A stretch of 62,649 nt of DNA, counting the filler, from Dugesia japonica (Eukaryota): NCBI GenBank assembly GCA_001938525.1. It is 6 parts of 6 records of this genome, joined end to end, with 100 filler letters (N's around TTAATTAATTAA, not from the genome) between each part and the next. Parts side by side here need not be neighbours in the genome. Positions count along the whole stretch, not along the records: positions 1 to 11,781 come from MQRL01588481.1; positions 11,882 to 24,452 come from MQRL01338704.1; positions 24,553 to 32,824 come from MQRL01614238.1; positions 32,925 to 42,100 come from MQRL01648527.1; positions 42,201 to 53,771 come from MQRL01642130.1; 1 more part is not named here. One strand, 5' to 3'. Below the pieces are notes generated by a model. It saw nothing but the letters and a program-made list of their open reading frames with translations, was not told the origin of the DNA and did not search any database. Below, piece by piece: positions 131 through 47,233 of the stretch (position 1 is the first letter of the stretch; every line of letters starts with the position of its first letter). Made by a program: the position numbers and the translations under genes.

Positions 131-154
131 TATAAAACTACGATTCTCGGAAGG

Positions 155-6707: not shown

Positions 6708-6742
6708 AATTCCTGACGAAAATAAAGTCGAAAATTAGAATT
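6708..6742 (+). ncRNA. Minimal type I hammerhead ribozyme (stem II decayed), Penelope-like/retrozyme type
   Basis: AATTC-CTGACGA-A-AAT AAA GTC-GAA-AATT-A-GAATT: 5-bp stem I, intact core, palindromic stem III. Confidence 0.65.
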
Positions 6743-6841
6743 ATCAAAAACAAATTTTGATCGAAGATTTTATTATATTTCAATCACGATCAATGGTTAC
6801 ACTAAACAATTATTCTCACAATAGTTGTGATTGTATAAGAG

Positions 6842-7124
6842 CAGGGGTGCAAAACATACGGCTCTCAAATATGGTACATGCGGCACGGAACCCAAGTTTA
6901 TGAAAAATCCAAAATGTATATTTTTATAGAAATTTAATTCTATACAACCAACTAGCTCCAAAATGATACTTTAACCGTGATATATTAAATTTTTAAATTA
7001 TATAGTATAGTACAGTAGCTATAATAATGCATAACCTTCGGCCCGGAATCTTTACACGCGTGGCCTGCGACATTGATTTAAACTGATGATGCGGCCCGTC
7101 TAGATAAACAATTGTGCACTCATG
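6842..7124. mobile_element. Non-autonomous hAT element (MITE), 283 bp
   Basis: Ends CAGGGGTGCAAAA / TTGTGCACTCATG (imperfect TIR), subterminal GCGGCCCG-type motifs, 8-bp TSD TATAAGAG/TATCAGAG (7/8 match). Confidence 0.85.
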
Positions 7125-8192
7125 TATCAGAGAACGCCTTTGTTATAAGTTACAACCCATTTTATTTACTCAAAACAAAATGAACAGTTCGACATTAACA
7201 ATTGGAAACAAATGATAGAATAAATTGTGATTTAGATACATTATTGTACATCAACTATAACTGAAGAACTATTGATAATATATCATTGTTGTAAAAATGA
7301 AACGTAGATCATATTTTGCAACAAACAAATTATTACGCCAACAGAATTCAACTGTAAAACAAATCTGATTATCAGGGCTGTCCGAAAAAAGCGGTACTTA
7401 AAAAAATTTCATACAAAATTAATCACAGAAAAATTGTCAAAGTAGAATAAAAAAAATCGTTGTTTTAGTTCTACTATATTACACTAGAAAAATTTTATTA
7501 ATATAATTAATTACATATTTAAATTATTAAGTTATTTATGGTAATTTTTTTCTAAAATAGATAATTTATTAATAACTTTTTTAAAAAAACTGTGAAAACG
7601 CGGGACAATGTTTGCTGATTATTCTGAAAGCAAATCTTAACACACTGAAATTTAAATAAAGATAAACCATTTAACTTGTTATTCAACTTCAATCAAAAGA
7701 CAATTTTGTGGGAAATACCTTTGTTATGATACTTGTTTGTAGCAACCACTTTAATTAGAACAAATTTAAAAATTATTAAGTTTAATAATACAAACAAAAT
7801 TATTGAAGAATTACTGAGCAAATTAAGAGTAAAAAAACAACTAAGACCATAAGAGGAAATATTTACTTTTAAAACATTTTAGAATAATTATTATTAATAT
7901 TTTTNNNNATTATTAATATTTTTATTGATTATGAATATTTATATTGATTATTAATATTATTTATTACAATAGAAAACTTTTATTAATAAAATTAATTACA
8001 TATTTAAATTATCAAGTTATTTATGGTAATTTTTTTCAAAAACAAAAGATGAAAATAATTTATTAATAACATTTTATTAAAAAACCGGAACAACGTGGAG
8101 CCTTGTTTGCTGATTATTCTGAAAGCAAATATTAACAAACTAGTAAATAAACAACGAAAACGATAATTGGAAATATTTATTTTTAAAACATT

Positions 8193-11100
8193 TTACAAAG
8201 TTGCAGTTTCGTGTCGAGTCAAAGTGAGTCTTGGTGTGATTTGCATGGTCATCAATTCCTGCAACAACAACTTGGTAGCGTAAGGCATGACAACTGAAGA
8301 AATATGCTGACTCGACCGACACATCTGGCACCACTCCTTGCTAGACGCCAACAATCCACACTGCTCACAAACCCATGCTCGGAATGGATCACTGCTGAGT
8401 AACATTCTCTCCTTTAGAATTTGCGATGCTCCATAACCTATCAGACAATCTCGTTCCATCTCACCAACCCTCAAACCTCCGTCATTCGATCGTCCAACCA
8501 CCGGTTGTCGGGTGAGTGGTTGATTCTTACCTAAATCCCTAGCGTGCACCTTATCTTGTACCATGTGTTTGAGGCGCTGGTAGAACACTGGACCCATGTA
8601 CACGTCGTACTCCATGATGCGGCCGTTCTTACCGGACATCAGCAACTCTTTTCCCGACATGGAGAACCCATTGGACCGCATAACCGTCGGGTAATCATCA
8701 TCGATATCCTTGTGCCCAGCCTCGCGGAATGCGGAACTGTCCCGGAACTGTCCGTCCATAACTGCGCTCTTGTTCGCCAATAACTCTATCAATTTCCCCA
8801 CTGTCATTCTGCTGGGGAATCCGTGCGGGTTCATTATGATATCTGGGACAAGTCCATCCTCTGAGTACGGCATTTCCGAGAGAGGAACAACTCGTCCAAT
8901 CACACCTTTCTGACCGTGTCGACTGCTCAATTTGTCCCCTACCTCTGGCTTTCGGTTCTGACTAGTTTTCACACGTACCAAGGTGTAGTGCCCGTCAACA
9001 GACATCATCACCTCGGTGCATATCGTGGGCTCATTGCCTTGGTACGAGGTCGTCGAGGATTTCTTCTCTAATGGCATCCTCTCAGTGATTGACGCCATAA
9101 TTGGATCTCTTACTGGGTTCACGATCTTGTGGATCACGAACTGTCCGTTCTTCACCGTTGCTCCGATATGTGGTAAACCGTCGAGATCGATCGCTTGTGC
9201 ACGTTTGTCCTCCTTCAGTGACACTCCGAGATCTTCGTTTTCTTTGATTGATTCAGTGAAGCATTTGTTAGTGAGGCTGCGGAACAATCCTCGTTGGAGG
9301 GACGCCTCGTTGATGATGAGGGCGTCCTCGATATCGTACCCGCCGAAACAGGTTATCGCGACAATCGCGTTCTGTCCGGCAGGCAATTGGTGGTAATTAA
9401 TGAGTGATCCTACTTGCGAGATCGTGAGTGGTCGCTGTGGGGAAATGAGGACGTGCTGAGTACCATCAGGACGCAATCGCTGATTGGTGGAGATGACACC
9501 AAGTGCTTGTTTGCCCATGGCGCATTGGTAGGTGTTTCTTGGGCTCTGATTGTGATGCGGGAACGGAATCAGACTCGCCACCGACCCGAGAATCGTGGCG
9601 TGATCGATATCGAGATGAGTTGAGTCCTTGGTTACCAATGATTCATTCATAGCAACAAGACACTCAGCGTACCCCTCCAGCGCGTCCAGATACTCCACCA
9701 CGCCCTCACTCACGAGATTTAACCAACCCACTTGTTTGTGTTCCCCCTGGATTCCAGCTAGGTACTCCTTAGTTAATTTGCTGCGGCCCTCCTCAACAAT
9801 CACGTAGGGACGCACCATTCTCCCCCCGTCGCTGCAAACATGCAATGTTTTCATTTCCTCCTCGTAATAGATCGACACGTGCGGATGGAACAATCCTTCT
9901 CTTCGTTTCCGCCTGAGGAACGCTCCGAATTCTTTCGGTCTATCTGTCCATCCAATCGGAACTCCGTTGATCATGATCAAGAACATTTCCGATCCGTGGC
10001 GGAACGTGGACAAATCCCCACTTGCGTACATCCTAATGAAGCGTTCCAGCTGGTTCTGTTGTTCCGGGGCGAGATTTAGCGTGATTTCCACGAGGAACGC
10101 GAGATTCTTCACGAGCCCGCATGCCTCCCCTTCTGGCGTGTCGGCGTCGCACACAAACCCAAATTGGCTCAAATGAATCGCTCTAGCACCAGAGATCTTC
10201 CTGACCTTCTCAAACTGGCTGCTGATCCTGCCGAGATGCCCCAGCGTAGCGATATAGCTCAATCGATTGAGAACTTGCGTCACCCCGGTCCGCGACATGG
10301 AGAACCTCTGTAGATGCCAGTTTCCAGTGAAACAAGCGTGCAGCATGCCCTCGGTGATGAAGGCCTGCTTGATGTATTGACAAGGATCGAGCTGGGTGGT
10401 CTTGTTCGCATTGATCGTTTTCTGCAGCTCCAGCTGCAAGCTCGACACCATCGATTGGAACTTGTCCTCGAACATCAGTGACAAATACGTTCCGACCATT
10501 TCCAACCGTTTGATCCCGTAGAAATCTCGATCGTCTGGGGAAACTCGCGCGATGCTGCCTCCGCCTCCGCCTCCATCGCCACCCTCCGCCAGGAGGATCC
10601 TGCGCACCATCAAGCCGAGATATCTCGCCCGATTGATCATGTTGTCGGGGCTGCCTTCTACGTGGTTCAGAACTCGACGATTCAGTTCTTGTCGAGCCAT
10701 CAACAAACTTCTTTCTTCTTCTTCCAGCGAGCTCGGATTTGTCGTCATTTTGTTGTCTTTATTCATCGCAACTTTGATCTTCGGAATCAACCAGAACAAC
10801 GCTTGCTTCTGCGAGAAAATTCCCAGCCCAATCGATTCTTTAACACTGCAAATCAGCTCGTTGTGAAGGTTCGATTCGACTCCGATCGATTCGAAAATAT
10901 CTTTGTGAGCGAACATGTTGAACGCGGCAAACAGAACGAAGAGAGGAATCGATTCGGTGAACAAAGAATTCTGCACATAGAAATATCCGCTGTTCTTGAA
11001 AACTGTCGTTTTCGTTTTATTGATCACTGTAAAACTCGTCACATGGCAAACGATATCGGTGTCGGGTAACTTCTCGGATAACGGCAATTTTATCCCTCCT

Positions 11101-11627
11101 TTCTTCGTGATTTTCGATTTCTCAATTATCATTCGGTTTTTTGCCATTTGTTCTTGCATTAGAAAAACTCGTTCTGTTCCTTTCGTGATAAAATATCCAC
11201 CCGTGTCGTAAATACATTCCCATTTTTCGGTTAATTTCTCTGTCGGCATTTCATATAAATTACACATTTTCGATTTTAACATCACCGGTAAACGTCCGAT
11301 TATAAATTTTTCAGTTTTAATAAGTTTATTACCTGGGCCGGGATATTGGATATCAACAGTTATATCGGCAGCATAAGTCAAATTTCTCAGTCGACATTGG
11401 TGTGGGTATAAAGGAATTTTCACATGATATTCGAATATTGCTGGTTTTTCAACTTTTATATTGGAAAATTGAACAAAATATTTAGAATTTGGAATATCAA
11501 TTCTACCATGAGTTTTTACGATTTTTCCCATTTCAACTTCAACAAAATGATTAAATGAATCGAGATGATGTCTAACAAGACTATGAGATTCATTGTATAA
11601 TTTTACTAATGAATTCGTTTGATCCAT
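8193..11627 (-). CDS. POLR3B: DNA-directed RNA polymerase III second-largest subunit (RPC2/POLR3B)-like protein, 1144 aa, intronless and divergent
   Basis: Pol III-type signatures PFPHHNQSPRNTYQCAMGKQA, GYDIEDA, GDKLSSRHGQKG, PDIIMNPHGFPSRMTVGKLIELL, LKHMV.DK.HAR, GEMERDCLIGYGAS, plus a C-terminal CxxC...CxxC zinc ribbon; single uninterrupted ORF. Confidence 0.95.
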   Translation of the reverse strand: MDQTNSLVKLYNESHSLVRHHLDSFNHFVEVEMGKIVKTHGRIDIPNSKYFVQFSNIKVEKPAIFEYHVKIPLYPHQCRLRNLTYAADITVDIQYPGPGNKLIKTEKFIIGRLPVMLKSKMCNLYEMPTEKLTEKWECIYDTGGYFITKGTERVFLMQEQMAKNRMIIEKSKITKKGGIKLPLSEKLPDTDIVCHVTSFTVINKTKTTVFKNSGYFYVQNSLFTESIPLFVLFAAFNMFAHKDIFESIGVESNLHNELICSVKESIGLGIFSQKQALFWLIPKIKVAMNKDNKMTTNPSSLEEEERSLLMARQELNRRVLNHVEGSPDNMINRARYLGLMVRRILLAEGGDGGGGGGSIARVSPDDRDFYGIKRLEMVGTYLSLMFEDKFQSMVSSLQLELQKTINANKTTQLDPCQYIKQAFITEGMLHACFTGNWHLQRFSMSRTGVTQVLNRLSYIATLGHLGRISSQFEKVRKISGARAIHLSQFGFVCDADTPEGEACGLVKNLAFLVEITLNLAPEQQNQLERFIRMYASGDLSTFRHGSEMFLIMINGVPIGWTDRPKEFGAFLRRKRREGLFHPHVSIYYEEEMKTLHVCSDGGRMVRPYVIVEEGRSKLTKEYLAGIQGEHKQVGWLNLVSEGVVEYLDALEGYAECLVAMNESLVTKDSTHLDIDHATILGSVASLIPFPHHNQSPRNTYQCAMGKQALGVISTNQRLRPDGTQHVLISPQRPLTISQVGSLINYHQLPAGQNAIVAITCFGGYDIEDALIINEASLQRGLFRSLTNKCFTESIKENEDLGVSLKEDKRAQAIDLDGLPHIGATVKNGQFVIHKIVNPVRDPIMASITERMPLEKKSSTTSYQGNEPTICTEVMMSVDGHYTLVRVKTSQNRKPEVGDKLSSRHGQKGVIGRVVPLSEMPYSEDGLVPDIIMNPHGFPSRMTVGKLIELLANKSAVMDGQFRDSSAFREAGHKDIDDDYPTVMRSNGFSMSGKELLMSGKNGRIMEYDVYMGPVFYQRLKHMVQDKVHARDLGKNQPLTRQPVVGRSNDGGLRVGEMERDCLIGYGASQILKERMLLSSDPFRAWVCEQCGLLASSKEWCQMCRSSQHISSVVMPYATKLLLQELMTMQITPRLTLTRHETATL

Positions 11628-11781
11628 AACTATAAAATGTCATAAATAAATTAATTAAAATCAAATAAAAATTACAATTTAATTCAAAAATATATTAAAA
11701 TGTATTATTTAAACAATATTATATTCACTAATCTAATTATTAGACCAAATATACTCAAAATATAAGATCAGTAACTTTATT

Positions 11782-11881
11782 NNNNNNNNNNNNNNNNNNN
11801 NNNNNNNNNNNNNNNNNNNNNNNNNTTAATTAATTAANNNNNNNNNNNNNNNNNNNNNNNNNNNNNNNNNNNNNNNNNNNN
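11782..11881. other. Artificial contig-joining spacer (44N + TTAATTAATTAA + 44N)
   Basis: Exactly 100 bp with a six-frame stop 12-mer; the same structure recurs five times. Confidence 0.95.
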
Positions 11882-11882
11882 T

Positions 11883-11916
<34 letters not shown>

Positions 11917-29197: not shown

Positions 29198-29269
<72 letters not shown>

Positions 29270-31080: not shown

Positions 31081-31224
31081 TCTGTAATCATTTGTAAACC
31101 TTAAAAATCCACAAATTTTTTTCCAACTCTTTGGTTGTTCAAATTATTTAATTGCTTTTGCATGAATAATTTATTTTCGTTTTCGTAGAAAATAAGCAAT
31201 TTGTTTTTAATTTCCATCACTCCA

Positions 31225-31590
31225 AAAAGTACGTTACCTCGAGAAAGCCCCATAATATCTGTATAAAGAAGCAAGCCTTCATATTTTGCTTCTATCGCTT
31301 AACACAGTTGCTTAATAATGCGAGATTTCAACTGTCTCGACTTGATGTAATTGACAATATTAACAACGCCAGTCAAAACACTTTCTAATTCTTTGAGTAA
31401 TATTTTTACAATGAGTGCTTCCCTATTTAAGAAGCAGTGGTTTAAATAAATCATATTGTTTTGTTGTTTTGCAAATGTCACAAATCCTTTGACTGACCCT
31501 ACCAATGATGGAGCTCCATCAGTACAAATTCTCCCCCATTGTTCCCAGGTTAATTTTAAATGTTCAAAGTAAGAATTAGTTACAATGATT
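31225..31590 (-). mobile_element. hAT (SCAND3/ZBED5-like) transposase fragment
   Basis: ICTDGAPSLVGSVKGFV...HCFLNREAL...VNIVNYIKSRQLKSR. Confidence 0.9.
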
Positions 31591-31679
31591 AACACTTTGT
31601 TTTAATATTATTTAGAAATTGTGTAATTTTTGATTTATAATAAATATTTAAATGAAGTCTGAAAATGTTAATGTATTGA

Positions 31680-32824: not shown

Positions 32825-32924
32825 NNNNNNNNNNNNNNNNNNNNNNNNNNNNNNNNNNNNNNNNNNNNTTAATTAATTAANNNNNNNNNNNNNNNNNNNN
32901 NNNNNNNNNNNNNNNNNNNNNNNN
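32825..32924. other. Artificial contig-joining spacer
   Basis: 44N + TTAATTAATTAA + 44N. Confidence 0.95.
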
Positions 32925-33074
32925 TTTAGTTTCGACTTTTTAATTATATTTTGCATGATTTGGCTACATTTCTCATTAATAAAAGGTAATTTAATTTATC
33001 TTATTTTAATGAAATCTCAAATTTGATCAATGGTTAAGTCCAACAATTACTCTCACAATAATTGGAATTATAAA

Positions 33075-33177
33075 ATTCCTTTTTTTAATTTATTTAAAAC
33101 TTTTAATAATCGATTTTCATCATTAATTGGCTATAGTACGTTATTTTTTCTTGAGTTTAATCATTGAAATTTATGTG
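33075..33177 (-). mobile_element. Continuation of the Penelope-like RT ORF on the far side of the Gypsy insertion
   Basis: Reads HKFQ*LNSRK...DENRLLKVLNKLKKGI, continuing in frame from ...KIMMILNT at 37646 across the TSD. Confidence 0.6.
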
Positions 33178-33359
33178 TATGAGGAAAGACTTATTATTTA
33201 ATAATTTTTAGCCAATAGAAATTGAGTTAAAGATTTTTAAAATACTATTCAATAATCATTTCTCTTATTAAGTATAGTTTGTAGTAGTAAAATAAAAAAT
33301 GTCTAAAAATATGAATTTTGATTTGCAAAATGAATTAAAAATTGAAGATTTACCTAACA
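33178..33359 (+). repeat. 5' LTR (TATGAGG...CCTAACA)
   Basis: Direct repeat of 37454-37645, immediately followed by the PBS. Confidence 0.92.
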
Positions 33360-34419
33360 TGGTGGCAGCGGTAAATACCGATTCTATTGTTAAGAGTTTA
33401 TCACCGAAGATATTCTGCAGAGAAGATGATACTGAAAAATTTATCAAAAGGTGTGAATTGTATTTTGAAACTAAAAACATCACCCATGTGAAACAACAGG
33501 AGAGATTAATCTCTTGTTTGTTAGATGAATATTTGTTGGAAGAATATGCAAAGAAGTTGAAAAATGTTGAAGGTCTCAAGGCTGGCTTATGTATGGCATT
33601 TGAGAAAAAGAAAGATGTTATCAAAGAATTTCAAAATCTGATTAACTACAGGCGTGTAGATGAAGAAATTCAAGGTTATTTTAGAAATGTAAAAGATTTA
33701 GTAAAATGATTATTTACAAATAAAAATTTTACTGAAGAAAAATGGTTGCAAAGATGCTTGTATATTGTTCCGTTAACAAAAAAGTTGAAGAAGTGACTTT
33801 GCGGAAACGAGAGAATATAGAAGAAATTGAAGAAACGATGACGTTTGTAGATTGAATAGAGAAAAACAGAGATCGAATTGATGCAGTTAGAAGTTACGCG
33901 AAAGCTGCAAATCGAAATTATCAGAAACCTGTAAATCACACAGTGAATAGACATGTGGAGCAAAGAAAGGAAAAACAAAATATTGAATGTTGGTTATGTC
34001 ATAAGATCGNTCATACTAAAGCAAATTGTCCGACAAAAAAAGTGGTAGAGTGCTGGAGTTGTCATAAAACAGGACATATAAGTCGAGATTGTCCAAAATA
34101 AAAACCAACAAAATGTTTTGGTTGTGGAAAGGTTGGGCATATTAGAAGATTATGTCAAGAAGTGAGGTGTAAACGATGTGGTAATGGTGGACATAGAGCA
34201 GAAGAGTGCTACACAAATTTGAAAGTGAAAATAACAAGTGAGATATTTATGACTGCAGAAAGATCAAGAAACCAATATAATCGAGTACATGCGATTGAAG
34301 ATGAAGATGTCAGTACAAACGATGGATATGAGGATGCATATGAAAGTGATTCCGATAGACAGTACCCAAAAGGCAGGGCTCCACCAGTAGAGAAGTTGGT
34401 TGGAGCCATCCATTGTTAA
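33359..34419 (+). pseudogene. Gag with four CCHC zinc knuckles, disrupted
   Basis: CWLCHKIxHTKANC, CWSCHKTGHISRDC, CFGCGKVGHIRRLC, CKRCGNGGHRAEEC. Confidence 0.85.
33360..33372 (+). promoter_or_regulatory. Primer-binding site, probably tRNA-Leu
   Basis: TGGTGGCAGCGGT abuts the LTR; complementary to ...ACCGCUGCCACCA, a tRNA-Leu 3' end. Confidence 0.75.
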
Positions 34420-37400
34420 ATAAAGTTAGTAATTATCCTCAAGAAGTCGAAAAGTGGGATGATATAGGAAAAGTTACAGAAAACATTTACAGGTTTTTAA
34501 AGAGAGAAACCTTTTGCGGATGATAGAAAAATAGAATGGGTCGGAATAGTTTTAGTATGAAAGAAAATTGCAAGGCAGACCAAGTGTTACGATATCAATT
34601 CAAAGAGAAAAAGTAGAATGTCTATTAGATACAGGTGCTCGAATTAACGTTATGAGTTTGAGTTGCTTTAATAAATTACGAGAAGGAAATTTAGAAATGA
34701 GTGATGATAGATTGCGTTGTGCAAATAATGGTACACTTGAAATTGTTGGAAAAGTTAAAATTGGAGTGATAATTGATGAAGTTTGCAAAGAGATTATTTT
34801 TTTAGTTGCTGAAAGAGTGAAACCAGATCTGATAGGGGGAATAGATATGCAGACGATTTTTGGATATCAGCTTATGCGAAAGGTCGATAGCAAAACGGAT
34901 GAAAAAGTATACAATTACATTTGTAATATTGAAGCAAAATGTGGACGGCAAATTAAAAATGGAGAGCGATAGACAAGAGCTTTAAATATCTTGAAAATTA
35001 AAGAGGATCAACGGTTATTGACAATAAAGTAAAAAAGATGCTTTTATGACAGATAAATGATATGTAGAACGCACACATGTGACAAGACACAAAATAATCA
35101 CAAGTGGTGAACCAATCAATGTAAAATTGTATAGACAACCAATGAACTTAGAATTTAAAATTGAAGAAGCTATCCAAAACCTTTTCGAGAATAATATTAT
35201 CCGAAAATGCAACTCTCCATGGAATACCCCATTGATATGTGTTTGGAAAAAGGAAAAGAAAGACATAAGCATATGCTTAGATTTTAGACAATTGAATGCA
35301 GTAACGAAAAAACAAACCTTTCTTATGCCTAATGCTGGACAAGTTAGATGAAGCCAAATATTTCAGTTCAATAGATTTGAGAAATGCATACTATCAGGTA
35401 GAGCTCGAAAAAGAATCTGAAGAAAAAACGGCGTTTTCAACGAAGCACGGCAATATTGTTTTAATAGAATGCCATTTGGCATCGCAGCAGCACCAGGAAC
35501 ATTTCAAGAGATGATGACAAAATTGGTAGGCGGATACAATGGAGCCATGGTTTATCTGGATGACATTCTGATATTTACAAACAATAAAGATCAACACTAT
35601 GAAGTAATTGAAAGAGTATTGATGGAAATAATGAAAGCTGGTCTAAGAATTAATCCAGAAAGTGTCAATTTCTTCAAAGTGAAATCAAGTTTCTTGAACA
35701 CATAATTAGCAATGATAGTGTTAGAACTGATCCGTCTAAAATAAAAGCTATAAAAACATTTGGAAAACCTAACTGTGTGAAGAAGTTACAAAGTTTCTAG
35801 GGAATCTGTAATTATTACAGGAAGTTTATAGAAAACTACGCACGAAAATCAAAGATATTAGAGCAGGTGTGTAGCGGACCAAGCAACAAAACATTAGAAT
35901 GGACAGATGAAATAAACGATACTTTTGATGGTCTAAAATAATCTTTAATAAATGCACCAATATCGTGTTTTCTGGGCATAAACAAAGAACTTATATTAGA
36001 TACAGATGCCAGTTTCGATACAATTGAAGCTGTATTGTCACAGAGAGATAAAGAAGGGAGAGAAAGAGTTGTTGCCTATGGATCACACTTAATGACAAGT
36101 CATGAAAAGGGCTACTGTATTACAGGAAAGGAGTTATTAGCTGTTTATTATTTCTGTTTACATTTCAAACATTATTTGTATGGTAGAAGATTTACTCTTA
36201 GAACAGATCACAAAGCTCTAACTTTCATGATGACGTCGAAGAAACCAATTACGTCGCAATTCCAGACATGGATTAATTATTCGAGCAGTTTAGACATGGT
36301 TTTGTAATATAGAAAAGGACTTTAACATGCTAATGCAGATATGTTATCTAGACCAAGATGTGAGGTATGTGTACAATGTCAAATGTCACATGAANNNNNN
36401 NNNNNNNNNNNNNNNNNNNNNNNNNNNNNNNNNNNNNNNNNNNNAACGAGAATATTGAATATAATTGAAAAGGAAAAAGAAGATCATTTAAACATTTCTG
36501 AGGAAACAGATTTGATCATGAAACTTAAAATTCCTGATGACAACTTACATGAAACAATAGAAGAAATACATAAATTATTATGTCATGCAGGAGTTGAAAA
36601 GGTGTACGAATATATGAGAAAAAGTATATTGCAAAGAATTTGTGAAGCCAAATACAGAAGATAGTTAAAGTTGTGAAATTTGTCAGAAGATTAAAGTAGT
36701 GACAACACCAACTAAAGAGAAGACAAAGAGTTTAGCTACCAATTTATTTGAAGTGATATTCACAGATATATGTGGGCTAATGCGGGAAACAAGTGGACAG
36801 AAAAATACATTCTTGGAATAATCTACCAGTACAGTAAATATATGGTTCTTATACCATTGCCTAGACAAGACGAGGAAACAATATGAAAAGCTATTTTTGA
36901 AAAGTAGATATTCAGATTTGGATGTCCAAGAGAGATAAGATTAGATTGTGGAAAAGCGTTTGAACCCAGTGTTATGAGAGAGTTTGCACAGAAGCTAGAT
37001 ATTAAACTTTGCTTTTCGAGTCCATATCGTCATAACAGACAAATTAAAAGACAGTTCAGGAAAATTCGAGATTTGATTAATGCAACACTTCAGAAAAGAA
37101 AGTCAACAGATTTGGGAGATCTTTTACTGGAAATAGAGTTTACAATGAACGCAACCAAACGAAATACGACTGGAAAGAGCCCGGCTAAGATTTTATTTGG
37201 AAATAAAATTAGCAGAGAAAAGTGGTATGAGTCAGATGTTTCAGAAAGAGCTAAAGCAAACACTTCAGACGTGATTACTAAAAGATAGTTCAAAGTGGGC
37301 GATATGGTACTCATCAAGGTAGAAACAAGAAATAAACGCCAAGACAGCTTTGAAGGAGAAAATTCATGAAAGGTGGTATGCGGTACAAGGAGAAAATGGA

Positions 37401-37445
37401 CAACGANTAGAAAGAAATGTGGAAAAACTTAGATTGTTTCTTAAG
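34400..37445 (+). pseudogene. Pol (protease-RT-RNase H-integrase), frameshifted
   Basis: LLDTGARINV; CNSPWNTPL; CLDFRQLN; MPFGIAAAPGTFQ; YLDDILI; LRTDHKAL; EIHKLLCHAG. Confidence 0.92.
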
Positions 37446-37453
37446 AAGGGGGA

Positions 37454-37645
37454 TATGAGGAAATAATTATTATTTAATAATTTTAAGCCAATAGAAATTG
37501 AGTCAATTCTGGATAAAGATTTTTATAATAATATTCAATAATAATTTCTCTTATTAAGGATAGTTTGTAGTTGTAAAATAAAAAATATCTAACAATATGA
37601 ATTCTGATTTGCAAAATGAATTAACAATTGAAGATTTACCTAACA
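37454..37645 (+). repeat. 3' LTR, preceded by polypurine tract AAGAAGGGGGA (37443-37453)
   Basis: Direct repeat of the 5' LTR. Confidence 0.92.
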
Positions 37646-38230
37646 ATTTGTATTCAATATCATCATAATTTTACTGTTATAATCATTTTTGTTAATGATA
37701 GTTAAGCTACTGCCTTTATCAAATGTGCAAATGCTCAAATCTTTCTTTTTTAATCGTATCTATATTTTTTCATCTTTAAAATTAAGTCTTTTATTCTTGT
37801 TAATAAATTTAATAACAGAGGATTGAATATTAAACTTATTATTCAGATAATTCTGTTAGTTTAAACTATCTGAAAGGAGCAATTTAGAAAATACCGATTC
37901 AATTTGAGCCTTGAAATTAAGTTCATCTATTTTATAGTTAATACAATGTGATGGGCCAAGTTTTTGGAGATCAGATTCATCATGAGTTAAAGTTTGAAAG
38001 TTATAGTTTGAATGATTTATTATTGTATTTTGAATATTAATATCAGAAATATCAAACATTAATTTAAGTTTAGCAAGTTCTAGATAATTTTACACTTTTA
38101 AATAATCTTATTACATGAAGGATACATAAACGAAACAAGTCATTATCAATTCAAGTAAACAAAACAGCTTACTGATTAAAATCTTCCTAACACGTCTTTC
38201 AGCTTCTATAGTTTGCAATGGTAATAAAAT
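37646..38230 (-). mobile_element. Penelope-like element ORF, N-terminal RT region, split by the Gypsy insertion
   Basis: INHSNYNFQTLTHDESDLQKLGPSHC...FKAQIE followed by ICTFDKGSSLTIINKNDY.SKIM.IL, the DKG motif characteristic of PLE reverse transcriptases. Confidence 0.8.
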
Positions 38231-39534
38231 GTTTTTGAAGATTGCGTTTTTCATTGTGTGTGTGCGTTTCATTATGTGTGTGTGCGCGCGTGTGTAAAGT
38301 AACTATTATATCATTGATTCACAAATTTTTGCATGCATGATTTCAAATCGTGGCATTGATTTAAACTGATTATGCAACTGTGGTGCAGCACTGTCTTAGA
38401 TTTTTTCATAATGATACTAATCATTTGAAATATGCATTTGTGTTAATTAATAAGTAAAATATTTAATAATTTATATGTATTTGATAGTTGTTCAAAAATA
38501 GGTAAATAATCGTTAAATAAGATTAATATTCACAATGATAATAATAATAGTAATGATATATTATGTATCATAACAGTTGATTAATATTTTATGTAATGTC
38601 AAGTTCCATGAAGGTAATTAATGCCATGCTTATTATGTGTGTAATGCTTATATAATAGAGAAAACTTTATTCTCAGCTGGTCTGGTGTGTACCTATTTCT
38701 CTACTGTACAATAAATATAGTAGCCGGTAACACCGATAGCTGTTTCTTGGAAGTAAATTAAATTAAGTTAGAAATGTTATCAAGGTTAATGGTACGAGAT
38801 AATTTGTTATATCAAATTATAATAGAAATCCCCCACTTCATAGTACTAATTTAAAATTTAAATAGTAACAAAATTTAAATTAACCAAACCTTCTAAAAAT
38901 ATCAAGCGTGGCAGTGAAAAGTTGTTGATGATCAAAGAATGAAAAGAATGAAATGCTTTGTTCTCGGAACACTGAAACAATAAAAAATAATAAAAAAATT
39001 TATTGCTTGCATTAATGTGTGAAAATTCATATTTATAAAACATTTTAATAATAAAAAATAAAAAGTATGAAACTTTATCTTTTTTTTATTCTTTGCATTT
39101 AGTTGTAAAAATTCACACCTAAAAAATGATAATAAAAATATTGTTTGAAATTTTAAAAGCCAAATAAAATCATTGTTTCAAGTCAGGTATGAAAATAATA
39201 ATAATTTCATGTATTAATGCTCAGTGTATAACGCGTTAAACAAAAAAAGCAATACAAAAAAACAATTGTTTACAATAAACTATAAAATTTAAATAATAAA
39301 AAATAATATTAATAAAATAAAATAATTTTTTGAGGTAAAATAAAAGGTGTGGAAATTCACACCTCGGGTATCAGTAAGGTGTGAAAGTTTCAATATTTAA
39401 ATGTCACAACCATACACCAATAAGTTAAAACAAATAGTAGAATATTAAAATCAAAAATCAAAATTATTTTTCTAAGATTAAACAGTTTTCAAAACTAAAT
39501 TTCTAAATCGAACTTATTTTCAAAAATATCATTT

Positions 39535-40447
39535 TCAACATTTGCCACTTTTATAATTTGTAATATTTTCACAAATATTTCCCCTCACTAAGAAATCACT
39601 TCTTTCAGAACCTGTTGTAATACACAAACCATATAAATTGACCAATTTTTGAATATCTGGCAAAATTGGATTCGCCCAAAATGTTCCTGAAACAATAAAA
39701 TGCCAATTATCAATATTTGGTTGGCTCAACAAATCTGTCAAATTAAATATTGAATCTTGTTCTATCCCAAATACTTGATTTCTATAATTAGTAAAATTAA
39801 CATAATTAGCCATTGAATGATAACAATCCTTTGGATCAGAACAATTTCCATTTGTAAAATATTTCAACATATTCGTTATCAATCGATAATTAATTAATTT
39901 AGATTGAATTATATTTTTATAAAAACTAATTTTTGGATACAAAATTAATTTACTATTTCCAAATGTTCCCAATGCCATTATTACATTATTTGAGTTTCCA
40001 ACTAGTAAAGGACCAGCTGCATTAGAATCATTAATATTGAATATTGATGGGTACCCGCCATCATATATATAATTAACTCCATTCAATATTTTATATCTGA
40101 ATCCAATATTATCACTTTCATACTGAAATTAGAATATAAATCAATNAATATATTTATTAANTAAAATCTATTACTAAATTATTGTATCGATCATTGATGA
40201 AAACCGTATTGTTTGTGCAATTAGTATTTGATTGACAAATCTCAGAATATTTGTACAAAATACAATTTTTTGCTATCGAATTAAATTTGAATGCTTTGCA
40301 ATCTCTCAAACTACATTCTATTCCACATTTGATATTAGAATTCGCATTTACTGTTGTCATATTATTGAAAATACATGAATCCACAGATTCATAAATATCG
40401 CAATTTACAACACTAATTATCAATATGTAAATTATAAAATGAAACAT
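39535..40447 (-). CDS. Secreted protein of about 286 aa: signal peptide, PAN/apple-like domain, and a domain resembling the TCAF/FAM115 N-terminal region; exons 40447-40175 and 40122-39535
   Basis: A phase-0 52-nt GTAAT...TTTCAG intron joins the two ORFs in frame; hydrophobic leader MFHFIIYILIISVVNC; CGIECSLRDCKAFKFN....CILY PAN pattern. Confidence 0.75.
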
Positions 40448-41493
40448 GATTATATCTAAATAATAACATAAATGATAAATAATTTCAATTATATATCGAA
40501 ATTTTTATCGTATTTCTTTTGAATTTTTTAATGAATCCGCAAATATCTTTACATTCATTTCATAAATATAAAAGAAAATTTCAATAAACATCGTTTTAAC
40601 ACTACTTTTATTGAAATTTGTGAAAATTGTATTTTATATTGTTAGAATTTGGATTGTTTCAAATACAATTTGACGTGGTATTATTATATTTAGTTTTTTT
40701 TAACTTTTTAAGTGTATTTATGTTGGATTAGATAAAGGAATCTTCAGATGTCGTAACGATGAAATGCAAATCTAGGACAATTAAAATTTATGATTTATGC
40801 AACTTTTAGAAATTAATATTACTTTTCTATTTTAAATTAAGAAAATTAATAATAATAATAATAATAATAATAAAAATAATAATAATAAGAATAATGATAT
40901 TAATAATAATAATATTAATATTAATAATAATTGTTGGGCTAGAACACAACGGTCCAGGGAAAATCTTAAACGATTTAAATGATGAAAATTACAAAAGAAA
41001 GAATAAAACGGAAAGTTGTGGAAGTTACTGAAAAGACAAAATAATAATATAAGAAATCGGCCGAAAATTTATTAAAACATAAACAACGAGGTGCTGGACC
41101 AGATAATATAATTATTATTATCATTATTATTATGTAATTATTATTACAATAATTATTATGAGAATATTATAAAAATAGAGAACAGGAAAATTGGACATAG
41201 AGAACCCAAATTTAGAGGTGTGGAAATAAATTTTAGATATATAAGAATGAAATGATGAATTAAATAATATAAAATATTATAATAATATATTAAAGGAGTA
41301 TTTACGACCCATTTTAGTAACGCTAATTAGTGTTTAATATTATTATTATATCTTAATTAATCACGCCATTCTGGTTCAATCACTGTCTGATTAAAATTGA
41401 TACACTAAACGAATTTCAATTTCAAACAAAATGTTTACTATGCATTTGAAAAAGAGTTGAAAAGTAATAGCCGCTGTGCACAAAACGATAAAC

Positions 41494-41554
41494 CTAGAAC
41501 TGGCATGAACTAGAGGAATCCGACTGTCCAATTAGAACAAAGCGTTTTGATGGT
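41494..41554 (+). pseudogene. Short diverged 28S rRNA fragment
   Basis: AGAACTGGCATGAACTAGAGGAATCCGACTGTCCAATTAGAACAAAGC matches conserved LSU AGAACTGG...GGGAATCCGACTGTTTAATTAAAACAAAGC with several substitutions. Confidence 0.8.
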
Positions 41555-42100
41555 GAACATCAGTAGGTAGATATGAGCGTACCAAACCGTAGCCCATCGA
41601 TGGGGTGGGAGTACCCCCCCCCATGAGCCCACCCTCCGGCAATTTTTAATTTTGTGATGAGTCATACTTTTTTCTCGAAATTTTTATGTCAGAACAAAGA
41701 CCATACCCCCCTCACGGAAACACATAACTTTAAAAAAAATTTTTTTTTGTTTCAATAAATTTTTTTTTTGTTTAAATAAAAATTTTTTTTTGTTTAAATA
41801 AAAAAAATTTTTTTGTTTGTTTATATTAATTTTTTTTTTTAGACAAAGATTTTTTTTTGGTTGGACTTTTATGCAATTTTTAAAATATTTCACTGATTTC
41901 TGTAATTTATAAAAAAATTTTTGAAGACTTCTATGTAAGTTATTAAATATTTCACGACTTCTATGTAATTTTTTAAAAATTGGAATGAGTTCTATGTAAT
42001 TTTGATAATATTTTAACTATCATCTTATTAATACAATTGAAATATCTATGTAAGATAATACACAAAAGACAATTATGAGAAAAATTTATTTAAATCACAC

Positions 42101-42200
42101 NNNNNNNNNNNNNNNNNNNNNNNNNNNNNNNNNNNNNNNNNNNNTTAATTAATTAANNNNNNNNNNNNNNNNNNNNNNNNNNNNNNNNNNNNNNNNNNNN
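42101..42200. other. Artificial contig-joining spacer
   Basis: 44N + TTAATTAATTAA + 44N. Confidence 0.95.
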
Positions 42201-42994
42201 AATGACAATGATTAACAGTATTTCAAAAATATTAACATATTAACAATATGAGTAATCAAAAATCCTAATAATAACAATCAATATTTTCCATTAAATGGCG
42301 GCATGGAAATATAAAATATTAAATTCAATTGTTTAAATGAAATAAAATTTTAAAAGCAATCTAGTAGACATGAATTACATTTTTAATTTATTTAACTTCG
42401 GTTATTCGTTTGTTGAAAAAAATTAAACAAATTAAACAAAAAATTAAATTTTCTGGTTATTTCAAAAAAAAAAAAAATACAGACAGAAAATGAAATTCTA
42501 TTCAGCAACAAAAATTGAAAAATCAATTATTTATTATAAAATTAAATTTTTGTATATTTTTTTTGTTAAAAAGAAAACAACTATTTTTAATTGAATTTCG
42601 ATTTTCAAATTGAATTTCCTTTATACAGATGAAGTTCCGTTTATAAATTATTTTTGATAATAATAGTAAATAAAAATATCCAAGGTCAATAATTTTTTTA
42701 TGTATAATGTTATAAATAATGACTATTTAAATAAGTATTTGTTTGATATTTATCAATAAACATTTCCTTCATCTTTATTTAGTAAAATTTAACAATAAAC
42801 TTTTTGTGAAAAAGTAATTTTGAAAAATATTTTAATCATTTACATTTAATGGAATTGAAATATTAATTTTATTTGGTTGTTAATAATAGTTTTAAAATAT
42901 AATATTAGGTATTAAGTTGTGTACATGTTTTTAACTTTAAAAATGCATGCAGATTTTATTATTATATTCAAAATTTTAAAAAACAACAGTCATA

Positions 42995-43617
42995 AAGAAA
43001 TGTTTCTTTACCGCATCATTACTAGTGATGAAACACGGTGCCTTAATGTTAATATGAATCAACGAAAAGAATGGGTGGAAAAGTAACACTCAGAGTAAAA
43101 CAAGATTTGCAACCACGCATGACGATGATTTGTGTCTGGAGGAGTTGACAATGCTTCATCCATTACGAAATACTTGAATGCAACCAGAGTCAACGATGAC
43201 CTATAGTTTCTCCGAATGCAAGCTCAATACGGAAATTCAACATAAAATACAGAATCAAAATATGGTGTTCTCCTACAACATGCTAATGCCAGCCCTCATA
43301 TTCAAGAGTTTGGTTTGTAAGTCTTGCCGCAACATCTATATTTTCCAGAACTTGTGTCGTCAGATTCCCATCTTTTCAGGTTGCTTTCGAACAAATTATG
43401 AAAAGTTGACTTTAATCATCGAATTATGGACATAGTTGGACAAATTTTTCGTTTTAAAACCGATTATTGCAGAGGCATCCAGGAACTTTTAGAACGTTAG
43501 GAACAAGTTTTAAATAAAGAAGGAGAATATTTTATTAAATAATTTGTTATATCTTTTTTATAATTATGTTCATATTATTTCGAAAAAAAACGGACACAAC
43601 GTATGTTAACATTTAAT
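42995..43617 (+). mobile_element. Degenerate mariner transposase 3' half with right end
   Basis: FLYRIITSDET...KQDLQPRMTMICVW...IHYEILE...LLQHANASPH; mariner-like terminal AAAAAAACGGACACAACG. Confidence 0.85.
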
Positions 43618-45936
43618 GGTTTTTTACTCTACATATTGTGATGGTAATATTTCGCTATTGTTATTTAATTTCCATAATTAATAAATTATAGAATAAATAA
43701 CGATTATAAATAAAAATAACAAAAAATTAAAATAATAAAATTAATTATCTTAATTAAACGAAATTTATTTTTATTTAGCTAATAAAAATTTACGTTAAGT
43801 TATAAATATTTTTAAGAAAANNNNNNNNNNNNNNNNNNNNNNNNNNNNNNNNNNNNAAAAATAATTTCTTAGGGTTTTCAAATTTTCAAGACATACTAAA
43901 GTATAAAAGTAATAACATAAAAAATGACATAATAACATAATAATAAAACAATAAAGTAAATAAAATTAATTATAGAAAATAGAGCAACGATAAAGGTAAA
44001 TTATAATTTTTTGTAAAATTCGGAATAAAATGTCTAATGGAAAAAATTACTAAGATTTATTTCACTTCTATAATCTATGTTTTAATTTTGAATTATAATA
44101 ATATTGTTATTGGCACAAAATAAAATTCTAAATATATTTTAAAAATGAAATTAGTGTTACACATAACGCATAAATTAAAAATAAAAACGTTTCTTAAACA
44201 TTAAATTATTAATTTTTTAAATATAATATTTAATTTAATATTTAAATTTAATATAGAAGCGAGTTAAAATTTTTTGTGCTCTCATTGGATATTGTGTTTT
44301 AAAAAATATTTTAAAAAAAAATTCAAAATCATAAATTAATTAGGAAATTAAAACAAAAAAAATTTTGAAAATGTCAATTTTGTTTTGAAGTTCAGAAGAT
44401 TTTAAAATGATAAAATTAATAACAAGTGATTTTGTTTTGCAAATTTTATGAAAGTTTTTATGAAAATTTTAAAAGATATATTATTACAAATGATATTTTT
44501 TTGTTTTGAAATTTAATGAAATTTTTTTAAACAAATAATCATTATTTTTTGTTTTAAAATTTTCTAAAAATTTTTAAATTTTGTTAATACAAATGATCAT
44601 TTTTTGTTTTAAAATTTTTTAAAAATTTTTAAATGTGTTTTTAAAAAAATTAAAAATAAATAAAAATTTTTAAATGTGTTTTTAAAAAAATTATTATTTT
44701 CTGTAAAATTATCAAATTAATTTTAATCAAGTTTTAAATCTAAATTTTTAAATTTTTGAAAAATAATTTCCGATTAGAGCATAAAGTTTTAATTTTGCTT
44801 CAACTTTCATGTCTTTCCAGTGTATAATTGTTTTAAATATATCTTCTACTTTTTATATTTTTTCGTGATTTGATCTTATGTTTTATCTTTTTGTCATTGC
44901 AACTATTCATAATTAGCCATTTTGTTAAGCCATCTTTGTTTAATTTATGAGCCAATAACTTCTCTACGATTCCTTCTACTAAAATCTTCTTTTTATAGAT
45001 ACTAACATGCTCTCCGTTCCTTCGATAATTTAAAGCTTTCTACATATCCTTAAGCTGTTGAAAGAAAACCTTTCTGAATCTTCAAATTCCAATGCTTCGT
45101 CTTCATTTACATAAATTTCTCGTAGTTCTTTATCTATGAAAGCAAATACAAACAAACTCATATGACCTTTCTTTATTTTGCTAGATCAAAATATTTGGTT
45201 GTCTTCAGAAAAAATTTTGAAAATTCAAGGGTGATTTGTTTCCTTAAGCAAATCCAATGATGCGTTGGTTGCCATAATAGTTAAATTGAGAACTTCACAA
45301 CATTTTATAATTTTTCTTCACTATCAGCGTCGTTTTATTAAAGTTAAAAAGATGTAAAACAAATAATCCATATCTGCTAATATAAAATATATATTTAAAA
45401 ATTTCAGTTGTCTTTTAAACAAAAAAATACACATACGATATTTCAAAATAATTTTTTCAATTAATTTTTTACTACTTTCAAAAATCAGTAATATTTTTCT
45501 TACTATAAATATTTCAAAAAATATTATTACTTAAATTTAAAATATATTATTTAAAATAATTTTTATGCAATAAAATATAAAAAAAAATTATTTAAACCAA
45601 ATGAAATTTACAAAAAACTTGTGTCATTTCTATAAAATTGATTTATTTCTCATTAATTCACCAGAAAAATTCTGATATTATTTTTCTTTAAATAATTTTT
45701 TTTATTTGAAATATCGTGATATAGTGAATCAATGTTTGATATCCTGGCTTAATATTTTATTTTTGTATTATTTATTTATTTTATTTTTACGGTATAAATC
45801 TGTATTTTAATATTTTTTATATTTGATAATTACAATTATTGCGAGAATAATTGTTGGACTTAACCATTGATCGTCTTTGAGATTTCATTAAAATAAAGAA
45901 AAAGCATCGATCAAAATAAAATGTATTTGTATAGAA

Positions 45937-45970
45937 ATTCAAATTTTCGACACTTGTCTTCTTCAGGAAT
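45937..45970 (-). ncRNA. Minimal type I hammerhead ribozyme
   Basis: Minus strand ATTC-CTGAAGA-A-GAC AAGT GTC-GAA-AATT-T-GAAT. Confidence 0.78.
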
Positions 45971-45971
45971 A

Positions 45972-46041
45972 TGATGACTTTTTGATAGATTCAAAACGGT
46001 AAAAGATCTTTTACCGTTTTGAATCTATCAAAAAGTCATCA
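45972..46041. repeat. Perfect 70-bp palindrome (35-bp arms, no spacer)
   Basis: TGATGACTTTTTGATAGATTCAAAACGGTAAAAGA|TCTTTTACCGTTTTGAATCTATCAAAAAGTCATCA, checked base by base. Confidence 0.97.
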
Positions 46042-46227
46042 AATTTTATTGGTTTATTTAAATTAAAAAATTTTTTATTTTAAATTAAATCTCAAAAAAA
46101 CCTTTTTAATTAAATTGAATTGAAAATCTCTCAAATGTTTAAAAAAATATATATATCAAAACATTAAAACATTAAAATATTAAAATAAAAAATTTTTCTG
46201 ACAAACATTCAATTCAAAAGTCATCAT

Positions 46228-46263
46228 ATTCCTGAAGAAGACAAGTGTGTCGAAAATTTGAAT
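46228..46263 (+). ncRNA. Minimal type I hammerhead ribozyme (inverted partner of 45937-45970)
   Basis: ATTC-CTGAAGA-A-GAC AAGTGT GTC-GAA-AATT-T-GAAT, inside a ~100-bp inverted repeat (about 45885-45985 / 46216-46318). Confidence 0.78.
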
Positions 46264-47200
46264 TTCTTTACAAATACATTTTATTTTGATCGAAGCTTTT
46301 CTTCATTGTAATGAAATTTTCTTATATTATCTTATAATTTTCATTTTTTTATTATTTATATTTTATTTAATAAAAATTTCATTATAAGTTATAATTATTT
46401 GATTATTACTTTATTTGTTAATAATTATTTTAATTACTTTATTTATTAATAATTATTTTAATTACTTAACTTTTATACTAAAATCTTTTCTATTTTTTTA
46501 TGATGTTTTTTTGTCTAATAACCTTTTTTTCAATTTATTAAAGAGAGATTTTTGTAAAATAAAATTTGAAATAAAATTTTATTAAACATTTATATATGGT
46601 GTTTACTAAATAAATATCTGAAAAATACAATCAATACAAAGCTTTAATGCACAGAATTACCCTTTATTATTTTTAATAATAATTTGTTTAATCAACTTTG
46701 AAGTGATAGCACAAATGTTTTAAACATTATAATCACTTAATTAATTTTTTTATATATACTTGCGAGTTAATTGTTTCTAAGGAACACCGATTTTACCAGA
46801 TTTTGGGATTTTCAACTGTTGAATTTTGATTGAATAACATTTTTTCATGTTTGTTCAACAGGGAGATTATCTCTGTATCGTTAAATAATTCAATAAACTG
46901 AATAAATTGAATACCTTTGTTCAGGAAATGTTTGATGATAACAGATTTTGGTCTAAAGTGAAGTATTTTGTATATACGTTTTTGAAAATGCTCACTTTCT
47001 CCAAATTTTTTATAGCGCTAAAATATGAAAACTATAGTTACAGAACATTGTTTTCCAATATTATTCAAAAAGATTGATTATATTAGTTAATTATTTATTT
47101 ACAATTACAATTATTCCGAGAATAATTGTTGGACATAACCATTGATCGTTTTTTAGAATTCATTTAAAGTAAAAGCTTTTTTTATTGTTTTTTGAGATTG

Positions 47201-47233
47201 ATTCGATATTTCGACTTTGTCTTCTTTAGGAAT
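47201..47233 (-). ncRNA. Hammerhead relic (core G5 mutated)
   Basis: Minus strand ATTC-CTAAAGA-A-GAC AAA GTC-GAA-ATAT-C-GAAT; same downstream motif as the other copies. Confidence 0.65.

What the first reader, a model, noticed from the sequence alone, without database searches (positions are those of the whole stretch)
6708..47233. Dispersed family of minimal type I hammerhead ribozymes with covarying stems
Seen: five copies on three different contigs (6708-6742 +, 23070-23100 -, 45937-45970 -, 46228-46263 +, 47201-47233 -) plus a decayed one near 23395-23420. All share stemI-CTGANGA-A-stemII-GAA-4-nt palindrome-H-stemI'. Stem II covaries (GAC/GTC vs GGC/GCC) and stem III stays palindromic (AATT vs ATAT). 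Several copies carry a conserved motif about 45-95 nt downstream (GATCAATGGTTA...AACAATTATTCTC.CAATA), also found alone at about 33025-33065. Established: such minimal hammerheads cleave as dimers and mark Penelope-like pLTRs and non-LTR retrozymes. Inference: a high-copy ribozyme-bearing retroelement or circRNA-producing family, plausibly mobilised by the Penelope-like RT seen at 37646-38230.
Basis: partly seen in the sequence, partly recalled or inferred. Interest (0 to 1): 0.7.

Follow-up and report, generated by a model that had tools for sequence, protein, structure and literature searches.

The report
Penelope retrotransposon ends with minimal hammerheads
These repeats are the broken-off ends of a Penelope-type jumping gene, present in thousands of copies in a flatworm genome, and each carries a tiny RNA motif predicted to cut itself; the kind is well known, though one subfamily has lost the gene and looks like a 325-base passenger element.

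Summary
The hammerheads are real. The genome holds 7,332 intact-core matches and 10,301 exact matches of the downstream motif, with 0 in reversed controls. Only 3 of the 5 window copies are intact: 6708 has a broken stem II and 47201 has G5>A. Two subfamilies (A, B) are the pseudo-LTRs of an RT + GIY-YIG Penelope-like element. One natural locus reads hammerhead-ORF-hammerhead, and the 'downstream motif' is the first ~18 codons of that ORF, i.e. the PLE tail. Fixed 3' ends, ragged 5' ends, inverted twins and target-site duplications fit PLE integration. The RT at 37646-38230 is not the partner: it is another PLE family, ~27% identical, with its own different hammerhead. The partner leaves a 72-bp piece at 32925-32996. 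Subfamily C (23070+23395) is an ORF-less 321-334-nt head-to-tail unit, retrozyme-like. The partner RT falls in an unnamed DKT/PKDHK lineage that fails the Hydra-clade test. RNA reads show mostly read-through, with no cleavage or circle signal. Verdict: new member of a known kind; cleavage untested.

The parts
6701..6838 (+). Subfamily B pLTR remnant with tail; hammerhead C3 at 6713, H17 at 6737, stem II broken; tail codons start near 6786
   Evidence: B-type hammerheads run straight into the ORF start in L299, L304, L325
22991..23420 (-). Subfamily C partial tandem (about 1.3 units of a ~322-nt ORF-less monomer): 5'-truncated hammerhead at 23419-23393, GATCAATGG at 23302, intact hammerhead with C3 at 23097 and H17 at 23073
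32925..32996 (-). Inverted fragment of the partner PLE ORF (aa 689-711 of P0121, 91% identity), cut by the end of the stretch
33001..33076 (+).
33076..33180 (-). Continuation of the other PLE family (PLE-W) beyond the Gypsy insertion, ending where the subfamily A insertion begins
   Evidence: joins 37646-38230 without a gap in 21 of 29 other loci
37646..38219 (-). N-terminal part (up to the DKG motif) of PLE-W, a different, Penelope/Poseidon-like family; not the partner of the hammerheads reported
45821..46045 (-). Subfamily A arm with tail; intact hammerhead, C3 at 45966, H17 at 45941; tail codons at 45876-45825
46046..46317 (+). Inverted twin of the same insertion, without tail; intact hammerhead, C3 at 46232, H17 at 46259; a 7-bp repeat AATATAA flanks the pair (possible TSD)
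   Evidence: (L267 row)
47096..47241 (-). Subfamily B pLTR remnant with tail; core G5>A, so likely inactive

Best explanation
The motifs are the hammerhead-bearing pseudo-LTR ends of a family of endonuclease-containing Penelope-like retrotransposons, left as thousands of 5'-truncated, often fold-back copies, with one gene-less subfamily that is likely copied in trans. Shown: the full unit is [hammerhead - about 70-100 nt - ORF of about 840 aa with RT and C-terminal GIY-YIG - AT-rich 3' UTR - hammerhead - tail]. The tail is the first ~18 codons of the ORF. Copies end at two fixed points about 55-60 nt apart, lose their 5' ends at scattered points, often carry an inverted twin, and are often flanked by 8-13-bp duplications. 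Inferred from Frangieh et al. 2024: the PLE protein nicks AT-rich DNA and starts reverse transcription inside a more-than-unit RNA just past the start codon, so every new copy, however short, gets the hammerhead and the tail. Inferred from Cervera and De la Pena 2014: the motif has no stable helix III, so it would cut only as a dimer through its 4-nt palindrome, or with help from the element's protein, to trim tandem transcripts. Most genomic copies are decaying relics. Subfamily C has lost the ORF, so its tail runs back into its own 3' part as a 321-334-nt unit, likely moved by the A/B protein.
For: L126 holds hammerhead (696-858), ORF pieces (859-2493, with an N gap) and a second same-strand hammerhead (3026-3132). 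Hammerhead or tail runs into the ORF start in 5 of 30 loci picked on the ORF middle. Among 30 loci picked on the ORF N-terminus, 5 match a hammerhead pattern within 135 nt upstream, 3 B-type and 2 A-type. ORF fragments lie upstream of 7 of 30 A copies. Fragments hit RVT_1 (E 5e-6) and GIY-YIG (E 3e-4), both just under Pfam's cut-offs because they are decayed. The intact relative P0121 (843 aa, 70% identity) begins with the tail peptide. 3' ends: of 28 unselected A hits, 6 end at the short site, 10 at the long site and 3 run into the ORF. Inverted twins in 10, 14 and 12 of 30 loci for A, B and C. Shared flanking repeat of 8 bp or more in 12 of 24 inverted insertions against 4.9% of mismatched pairs. 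C: after GATCAATGG, 6 of 30 copies reach another hammerhead ~195 nt on, most of the rest end within ~55 nt or at the contig end, and none enters an ORF.
Against: No intact full-length copy was found: most of the 150 listed ORF matches hold stops and L126 has a gap. No ORF lay within the flanks of 30 B or 30 C copies picked on the repeat, so most B copies are tiny and may also move in trans. RNA reads show no pile-up at the cleavage site and no back-joints; 70-78% of laid reads run on into unlike sequence and both directions are covered. Seven family monomers: six fold no better than shuffles (z -0.48 to 0.69), L068 does (z -2.95). The swapped dimer scores only -0.2 to -6.0 kcal/mol. A and C have U at H17, recalled as the poorest cleavage base. 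Within subfamilies the core is barely better kept than flanks (0.92 against 0.88-0.89). No autonomous parent of C was found.
Confidence: 0.9

Rival explanations
1. The whole family is a non-LTR retrozyme: short tandem units that self-cleave into circular RNAs and only borrow a PLE RT.
For: Subfamily C is ORF-less, 321-334 nt and head-to-tail, within the 150-450-bp range given for retrozymes (PMC7229834 passages). B copies are mostly very short fold-backs.
Against: A and B run straight into an RT+GIY-YIG ORF. C shows at most two hammerheads per locus in a 30-locus scan (L374, L375, L390), not long arrays. The hammerhead is minimal, not canonical. No circle signal in four RNA runs, three oligo-dT and one cDNA.
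Confidence: 0.07
2. The copies are mobilised by the PLE seen at 37646-38230 (PLE-W).
For: It lies in the window, and the A insertion at 32925-33076 abuts its broken end. Family pieces also sit in or near 3 of 30 PLE-W loci (L037, L039, L052).
Against: PLE-W has its own hammerhead with a longer stem II and a 6-nt palindrome (10 of 30 loci). It is 27-28% identical to the partner RT and groups with DKG/PKIHK RTs (long branch, support 94). With over 10,000 tail copies in 854 Mb, such neighbours are expected by chance.
Confidence: 0.02
3. The hammerhead fold is a non-catalytic protein-binding or promoter element of the PLE, kept for structure and not for cutting.
For: In PAc, hammerhead mutants did not affect insertion in vitro and no RNA-seq ends were seen at the cut site (PMC11167929). 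No pile-up here either. U at H17 in A and C.
Against: The core, the G10.1-C11.1 pair and the palindromic 15.2-16.2 pair are kept across A, B and C while flanks align poorly, and PLE-W keeps the same core with different stems. PAc's hammerhead did cut when its protein was added.
Confidence: 0.2

Closest known systems
Minimal type I hammerheads (min-HHR) in pLTRs of metazoan PLEs (Cervera and De la Pena 2014, PMC4209133; read parts 1-2 of 4 of the text)
   Same: CUGANGA core, extra base between 9 and 10.1, G10.1-C11.1 pair, palindromic 15.2-16.2, no helix III loop, thousands of dispersed single copies, opposite-strand pairs 100-700 bp apart, several sequence families per genome.
   Different: Helix II is only 3-4 bp here (7-8 bp in the Schistosoma family described). 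Host is a non-schistosome flatworm, likely a planarian.
EN+ PLE insertion units with pLTR, inverted pLTR and tail (Adineta Pen2a, PMC3846280 passages; scheme in PMC8557442 passages; PAc in PMC11167929, parts 1-2 of 4)
   Same: pLTR and tail include the first codons of the ORF; tail on one arm only; inverted 5' twin; TSD about 9 bp; AT-rich targets; ORF about 840 aa.
   Different: The two 3' end points are about 55-60 nt apart rather than 30-40, and the ORF starts 70-100 nt after the hammerhead rather than inside it as in PAc.
Hydra clade of C-terminal EN+ PLEs (Craig et al. 2021, PMC8557442; sections 11-12 and supplement passages)
   Same: DKT in place of DKG, KDHK, a KWK like RWK, and a CxCx5C linker.
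   Different: RT motif 4 is canonical (GLAMG...LSP), the active site is YIDD rather than YRDD, and CCHH is present. Not a member.
Non-LTR retrozymes as non-autonomous PLE derivatives (PMC7229834 passages; bioRxiv 10.64898/2026.07.22.740005, parts 1-3 of 5)
   Same: Subfamily C: ORF-less, ~325-nt head-to-tail unit with a type I hammerhead, related to a PLE pLTR.
   Different: Minimal rather than canonical hammerhead; dispersed copies of at most about two units with PLE-type tail and inversions; no circular RNA shown.

Membership tests
EN+ Penelope-like element (A, B) | Single ORF with RT and C-terminal GIY-YIG | tested here: met
   decayed fragments score just under the Pfam cut-offs, intact relatives P0121/P0122 carry PF00078, and P0122 also PF01541
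EN+ Penelope-like element (A, B) | Direct pLTRs flanking the ORF, hammerhead in sense orientation | tested here: met
   L126; same-strand hammerhead downstream of the ORF end in 6 of 30 loci, query locus included
EN+ Penelope-like element (A, B) | Optional tail overlapping the ORF start | tested here: met
   about 55-60 nt, longer than the usual 30-40
EN+ Penelope-like element (A, B) | 5' truncation, inverted 5' twin, TSD | tested here: met
EN+ Penelope-like element (A, B) | Current transposition or an intact copy | tested here: inconclusive
   No intact full-length copy among listed matches; assembly fragmented (648,594 contigs)
Minimal type I hammerhead | Core, extra base after A9, G10.1-C11.1, palindromic helix III positions | tested here: met
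   95 of the 100 listed matches are palindromic (counted by eye); 3 of 5 window copies intact
Minimal type I hammerhead | Self-cleavage as dimer or with protein | not testable with these tools
   No cleavage pile-up in RNA reads, which such libraries rarely show
Hydra clade PLE | DKT motif and CxCx5C linker | tested here: met
Hydra clade PLE | CCHH motif absent from the endonuclease | tested here: not met
   P0121 has CxxC in the GIY-YIG core and two later histidines
Hydra clade PLE | Divergent RT4(B) | tested here: not met
   Canonical GLAMG and YIDD, against VTMGSYDG and YRDD in the paper's Hydra rows
Nematis clade PLE | CX2-5CxxC linker and grouping with Nematis RTs | tested here: inconclusive
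   P0121 has Cx3CxCx5C, some relatives Cx3CxxC; the 30-row clade sits in an open fork beside SDKGGE/KTHK rows labelled Nematis-like by motif only; no named references in the tree
Non-LTR retrozyme (C) | No coding capacity, 150-450-nt monomer | tested here: met
   321-334 nt; 0 of 30 continue into an ORF
Non-LTR retrozyme (C) | Tandem arrays with two or more hammerheads | tested here: inconclusive
   Two hammerheads in L374, L375, L390 and L411, mostly decayed; no longer arrays seen; short-read collapse is possible
Non-LTR retrozyme (C) | Canonical type I hammerhead with loop 1-loop 2 contacts | tested here: not met
   Minimal motif with 3-bp stem II; the 2026 preprint also counts minimal motifs
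Non-LTR retrozyme (C) | Abundant circular RNA | not testable with these tools
   Mostly oligo-dT libraries; only 11-149 reads laid, no joints, middle of the unit cut by the tool

The most novel reading that the evidence does not exclude
This genome holds an undescribed PLE lineage (DKT/PKDHK RT, Cx3CxCx5C linker, CCHH kept; about 30 unnamed relatives) together with its own ORF-less 325-nt offspring, a retrozyme caught at birth that is cut by a minimal hammerhead, circularised and copied back by the parent's RT. Parent and passenger share ribozyme and tail in one regenerable, easily manipulated animal.
Probability: 0.2. Interest if true: 0.6.

Novelty: new member of a known kind. Interest (0 to 1): 0.3.

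Why it matters
Minimal hammerheads in PLE ends are documented, so the main reading adds a family, not a concept. Two side results have some value. The partner RT belongs to a well-supported lineage that mixes Hydra-like and canonical motifs and was not found in the one reference set I could search. Subfamily C is a direct example of an ORF-less, head-to-tail derivative of a PLE pLTR, the step proposed for the origin of animal retrozymes. If the host is a planarian, the open question of what PLE hammerheads do in vivo becomes testable with RNAi and small-RNA methods.

Tried and rejected
Rfam scan: no hammerhead family at E<=5. PLE-W as partner: rejected. Hydra-clade membership: suggested by DKT and CxCx5C, rejected on RT4, YIDD and CCHH. 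The maximum-likelihood tree did not finish; FastTree was used, 91 rows of 600 aa or more with a DK motif out of 162 proteins, P0136 dropped, labels by motif only. ESM Atlas gave no result. Cluster look-up gave no organism names. Run search: no RNA holder listed; four raw RNA runs of the same species label were laid instead and showed no cleavage ends or back-joints, which is weak evidence. Monomer and dimer folding energies were uninformative. The first TSD scan was too strict (2 cases) and was loosened (24 cases). An apparent triple tandem (L217) is a rearranged local duplication and L218 spans an assembly gap. An ORF upstream of the C copy in L220 is separated from it by about 1 kb of unrelated DNA. 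Literature searches for planarian, Schmidtea, Dugesia or Nematis with Penelope or hammerhead listed no description of this family. The motifs PKDHK, GSLDV, AMGNN and SDKTK were not found in the held supplement text of PMC8557442, whose long sequence runs are cut. Repbase, subscription papers and the preprint's supplements were not available, so the family may already be catalogued. The 2017 paper on dimer cleavage of PLE hammerheads (recalled) is not held.
Full report
OBSERVATION. The window is six stretches, 20-30% GC, from an 854-Mb assembly in 648,594 contigs. The host is a flatworm: the best named hits of the RPC2 gene at 8193-11639 are tapeworm proteins at 41-44% identity. Planarian is my inference from genome size and AT content, and earlier notes say the same (unchecked). 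Three are intact (23070, 45937, 46228); a strict descriptor finds these three and none in 100 shuffles. At 6708 stem II reads AAT/GTC; at 47201 the core reads CTAAAGA. Genome-wide, the intact-core pattern has 7,332 exact matches and the downstream motif 10,301, with 0 in the reversed controls. These are lower bounds: only 5 of 29 C loci picked without regard to the core still match the pattern.

STRUCTURE. Three subfamilies share TTC-CTGANGA-A-GNC-loop-GNC-GAA-A(AT/TA)T-H-GAA. A (45937, 46228, 33025) has GAC/GTC and AATT-U. B (6708, 47201) has GAC/GTC and ATAT or AATT with C or A. C (23070, 23395) has GGC/GCC and ATAT-U. The stem II double change is real: 377 GGC/GCC against 134 mispaired GAC/GCC. 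Stem I position 4, outside the pattern, switches between A-U and G-C and pairs in 40 of 48 copies (shuffle mean 29.2, none of 2,000 as high). The pair count on 34 distinct rows gives 33 cells changed on both sides against 16.2 shuffled, but 30 of the 35 rows were pattern-selected and relatedness inflates this. Within a subfamily the core is only slightly better kept than flanks (A 228/247 against 587/665; C 310/338 against 830/936), so the copies mostly decay and selection acted on the master elements.

THE PARTNER. A copies share a sharp 3' end and ragged 5' ends. Upstream of 7 of 30 lie pieces of a GIY-YIG-ending ORF. Walking that ORF back leads to the hammerhead again: in 5 of 30 loci the hammerhead or tail runs in frame into the ORF, and L126 holds hammerhead, ORF and a second same-strand hammerhead. 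The 'downstream motif' translates as the first ~18 residues, matching the N-terminus of P0121, an intact 843-aa relative at 70% identity. B-type hammerheads precede the same ORF start in L299, L304 and L325, and a B copy follows the ORF end in L077. In the window, 32925-32996 is an inverted piece of this ORF abutting the lone tail at 33001-33076.

INTEGRATION SIGNATURE. 3' ends fall at two points about 55-60 nt apart: of 28 unselected A hits, 6 end at the short site, 10 at the long site and 3 run into the ORF; of 18 B hits, 11 end near the short site and 3 at the long site. Inverted twins lie upstream in 10, 14 and 12 of 30 A, B and C loci and usually stop at the short site. Twelve of 24 such insertions have a shared flanking repeat of 8 bp or more, against 4.9% of mismatched pairs. 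This is the pLTR, inverted pLTR, one-sided tail and TSD pattern described for Adineta Pen2a, where pLTR plus tail hold the first 22 codons (PMC3846280 passages) and in PMC8557442 (passages). Frangieh et al. tie the tail to two internal RT start sites and report protein-assisted hammerhead cleavage that is not needed for insertion in vitro (PMC11167929).

THE RT AT 37646-38230. It is the N-terminal part of another PLE, split by a Gypsy-type LTR element; the two sides join without a gap in 21 of 29 other loci. It is 27-28% identical to P0121 over the RT and groups with DKG/PKIHK RTs on a long branch. Its own pLTR carries a different minimal hammerhead in 10 of 30 loci. It is not the partner.

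SUBFAMILY C. No ORF lies within 30 C loci picked on the repeat. Five of 132 C loci have an ORF piece nearby; in the ones I read (L216, L220, L345, L382) it was not continuous with the C unit. Instead, the sequence after the hammerhead passes GATCAATGG and returns to the next hammerhead at a period of 321-334 nt. Of 30 copies picked on the junction motif (217 genome-wide), 6 reach another hammerhead about 195 nt on, one has both, most of the rest end within about 55 nt or at the contig end, and none enters an ORF. 5' ends reach at most about 340 nt upstream of the last hammerhead. The window's 23395 and 23070 motifs are one such 1.3-mer. A circular template and an uncut tandem transcript would both give this pattern; the data cannot separate them. 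It fits the proposal that animal retrozymes are non-autonomous PLE derivatives (bioRxiv 10.64898/2026.07.22.740005), where 8 of 9 tested dimers showed no cleavage.

LINEAGE. P0121 has DKT, PKDHK, KWK and Cx3CxCx5C, which recall the Hydra clade, but keeps GLAMG, YIDD and CCHH, which the paper's Hydra rows lack. In a FastTree of 91 RT cores, it sits in a 30-row clade (support 100, branch 0.7) in an open fork beside Nematis-like rows, apart from Penelope/Poseidon-like and Neptune-like rows. Labels are by motif only; no named reference and no Hydra sequence was in the tree. The ten relatives looked up carry no organism names.

EXPRESSION. Four RNA runs give 73-3,344 reads on an A locus, in both directions, 70-78% running on into unlike sequence; loose ends pile at the tail end, and there are no pile-ups at the cleavage site or back-joints. 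C gives 11-149 reads, no joints, and the tool cut reads in the unit's middle. This looks like read-through from host transcripts and says little about cleavage or circles.

VERDICT. Shown: copy number, PLE linkage of A and B, tail identity, integration signature, wrong-partner correction, ORF-less tandem unit of C. Inferred: cleavage, dimer use, priming mechanism, trans-mobilisation of C. New member of a known kind (PMC4209133); interest 0.3.

Noticed in passing
window 8193-11639 (-): Intronless RNA polymerase III second subunit (RPC2), 1148 aa, 47% GC in an AT-rich genome; best named hits are tapeworm proteins at 41-44%, one unnamed fragment at 70%.
   Followed up: partly
window 33177-37647 (+); solo LTR 19565-19767: Degenerate Gypsy-type LTR retrotransposon (zinc knuckle, protease, RT, RNase H, integrase pieces; LTRs 88.5% identical) inserted into the PLE-W ORF.
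   Followed up: partly
L032, L042, L053, L059 and others: The second PLE family (PLE-W) has its own minimal hammerhead with a longer stem II and a 6-nt palindrome, overlapping its probable start codon.
   Followed up: partly
window 1218-3679: 20-bp AT-rich satellite, about 100 copies around an N gap.
   Followed up: no
window 16500-22900: Broken ORFs that look Polinton/Maverick-like: an integrase hit at 16508-16810; ATPase-like and DNA-polymerase-like pieces judged by eye only.
   Followed up: no
window 45968-46045: Near-perfect 78-bp hairpin at the junction of the inverted pair, the source of a spurious MIR9408 match.
   Followed up: partly
window 6129-8157: Another dispersed repeat in about three pieces beside the 6708 copy.
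   Followed up: no
L102:1737-2759: A second, more distant member (about 68% nucleotide identity) of the same PLE lineage follows the first in tandem.
   Followed up: no
L359, L225, L364: The other C variant (loop ATA) also shows head-to-tail continuity in 3 of 37 copies, most of which had short flanks.
   Followed up: partly
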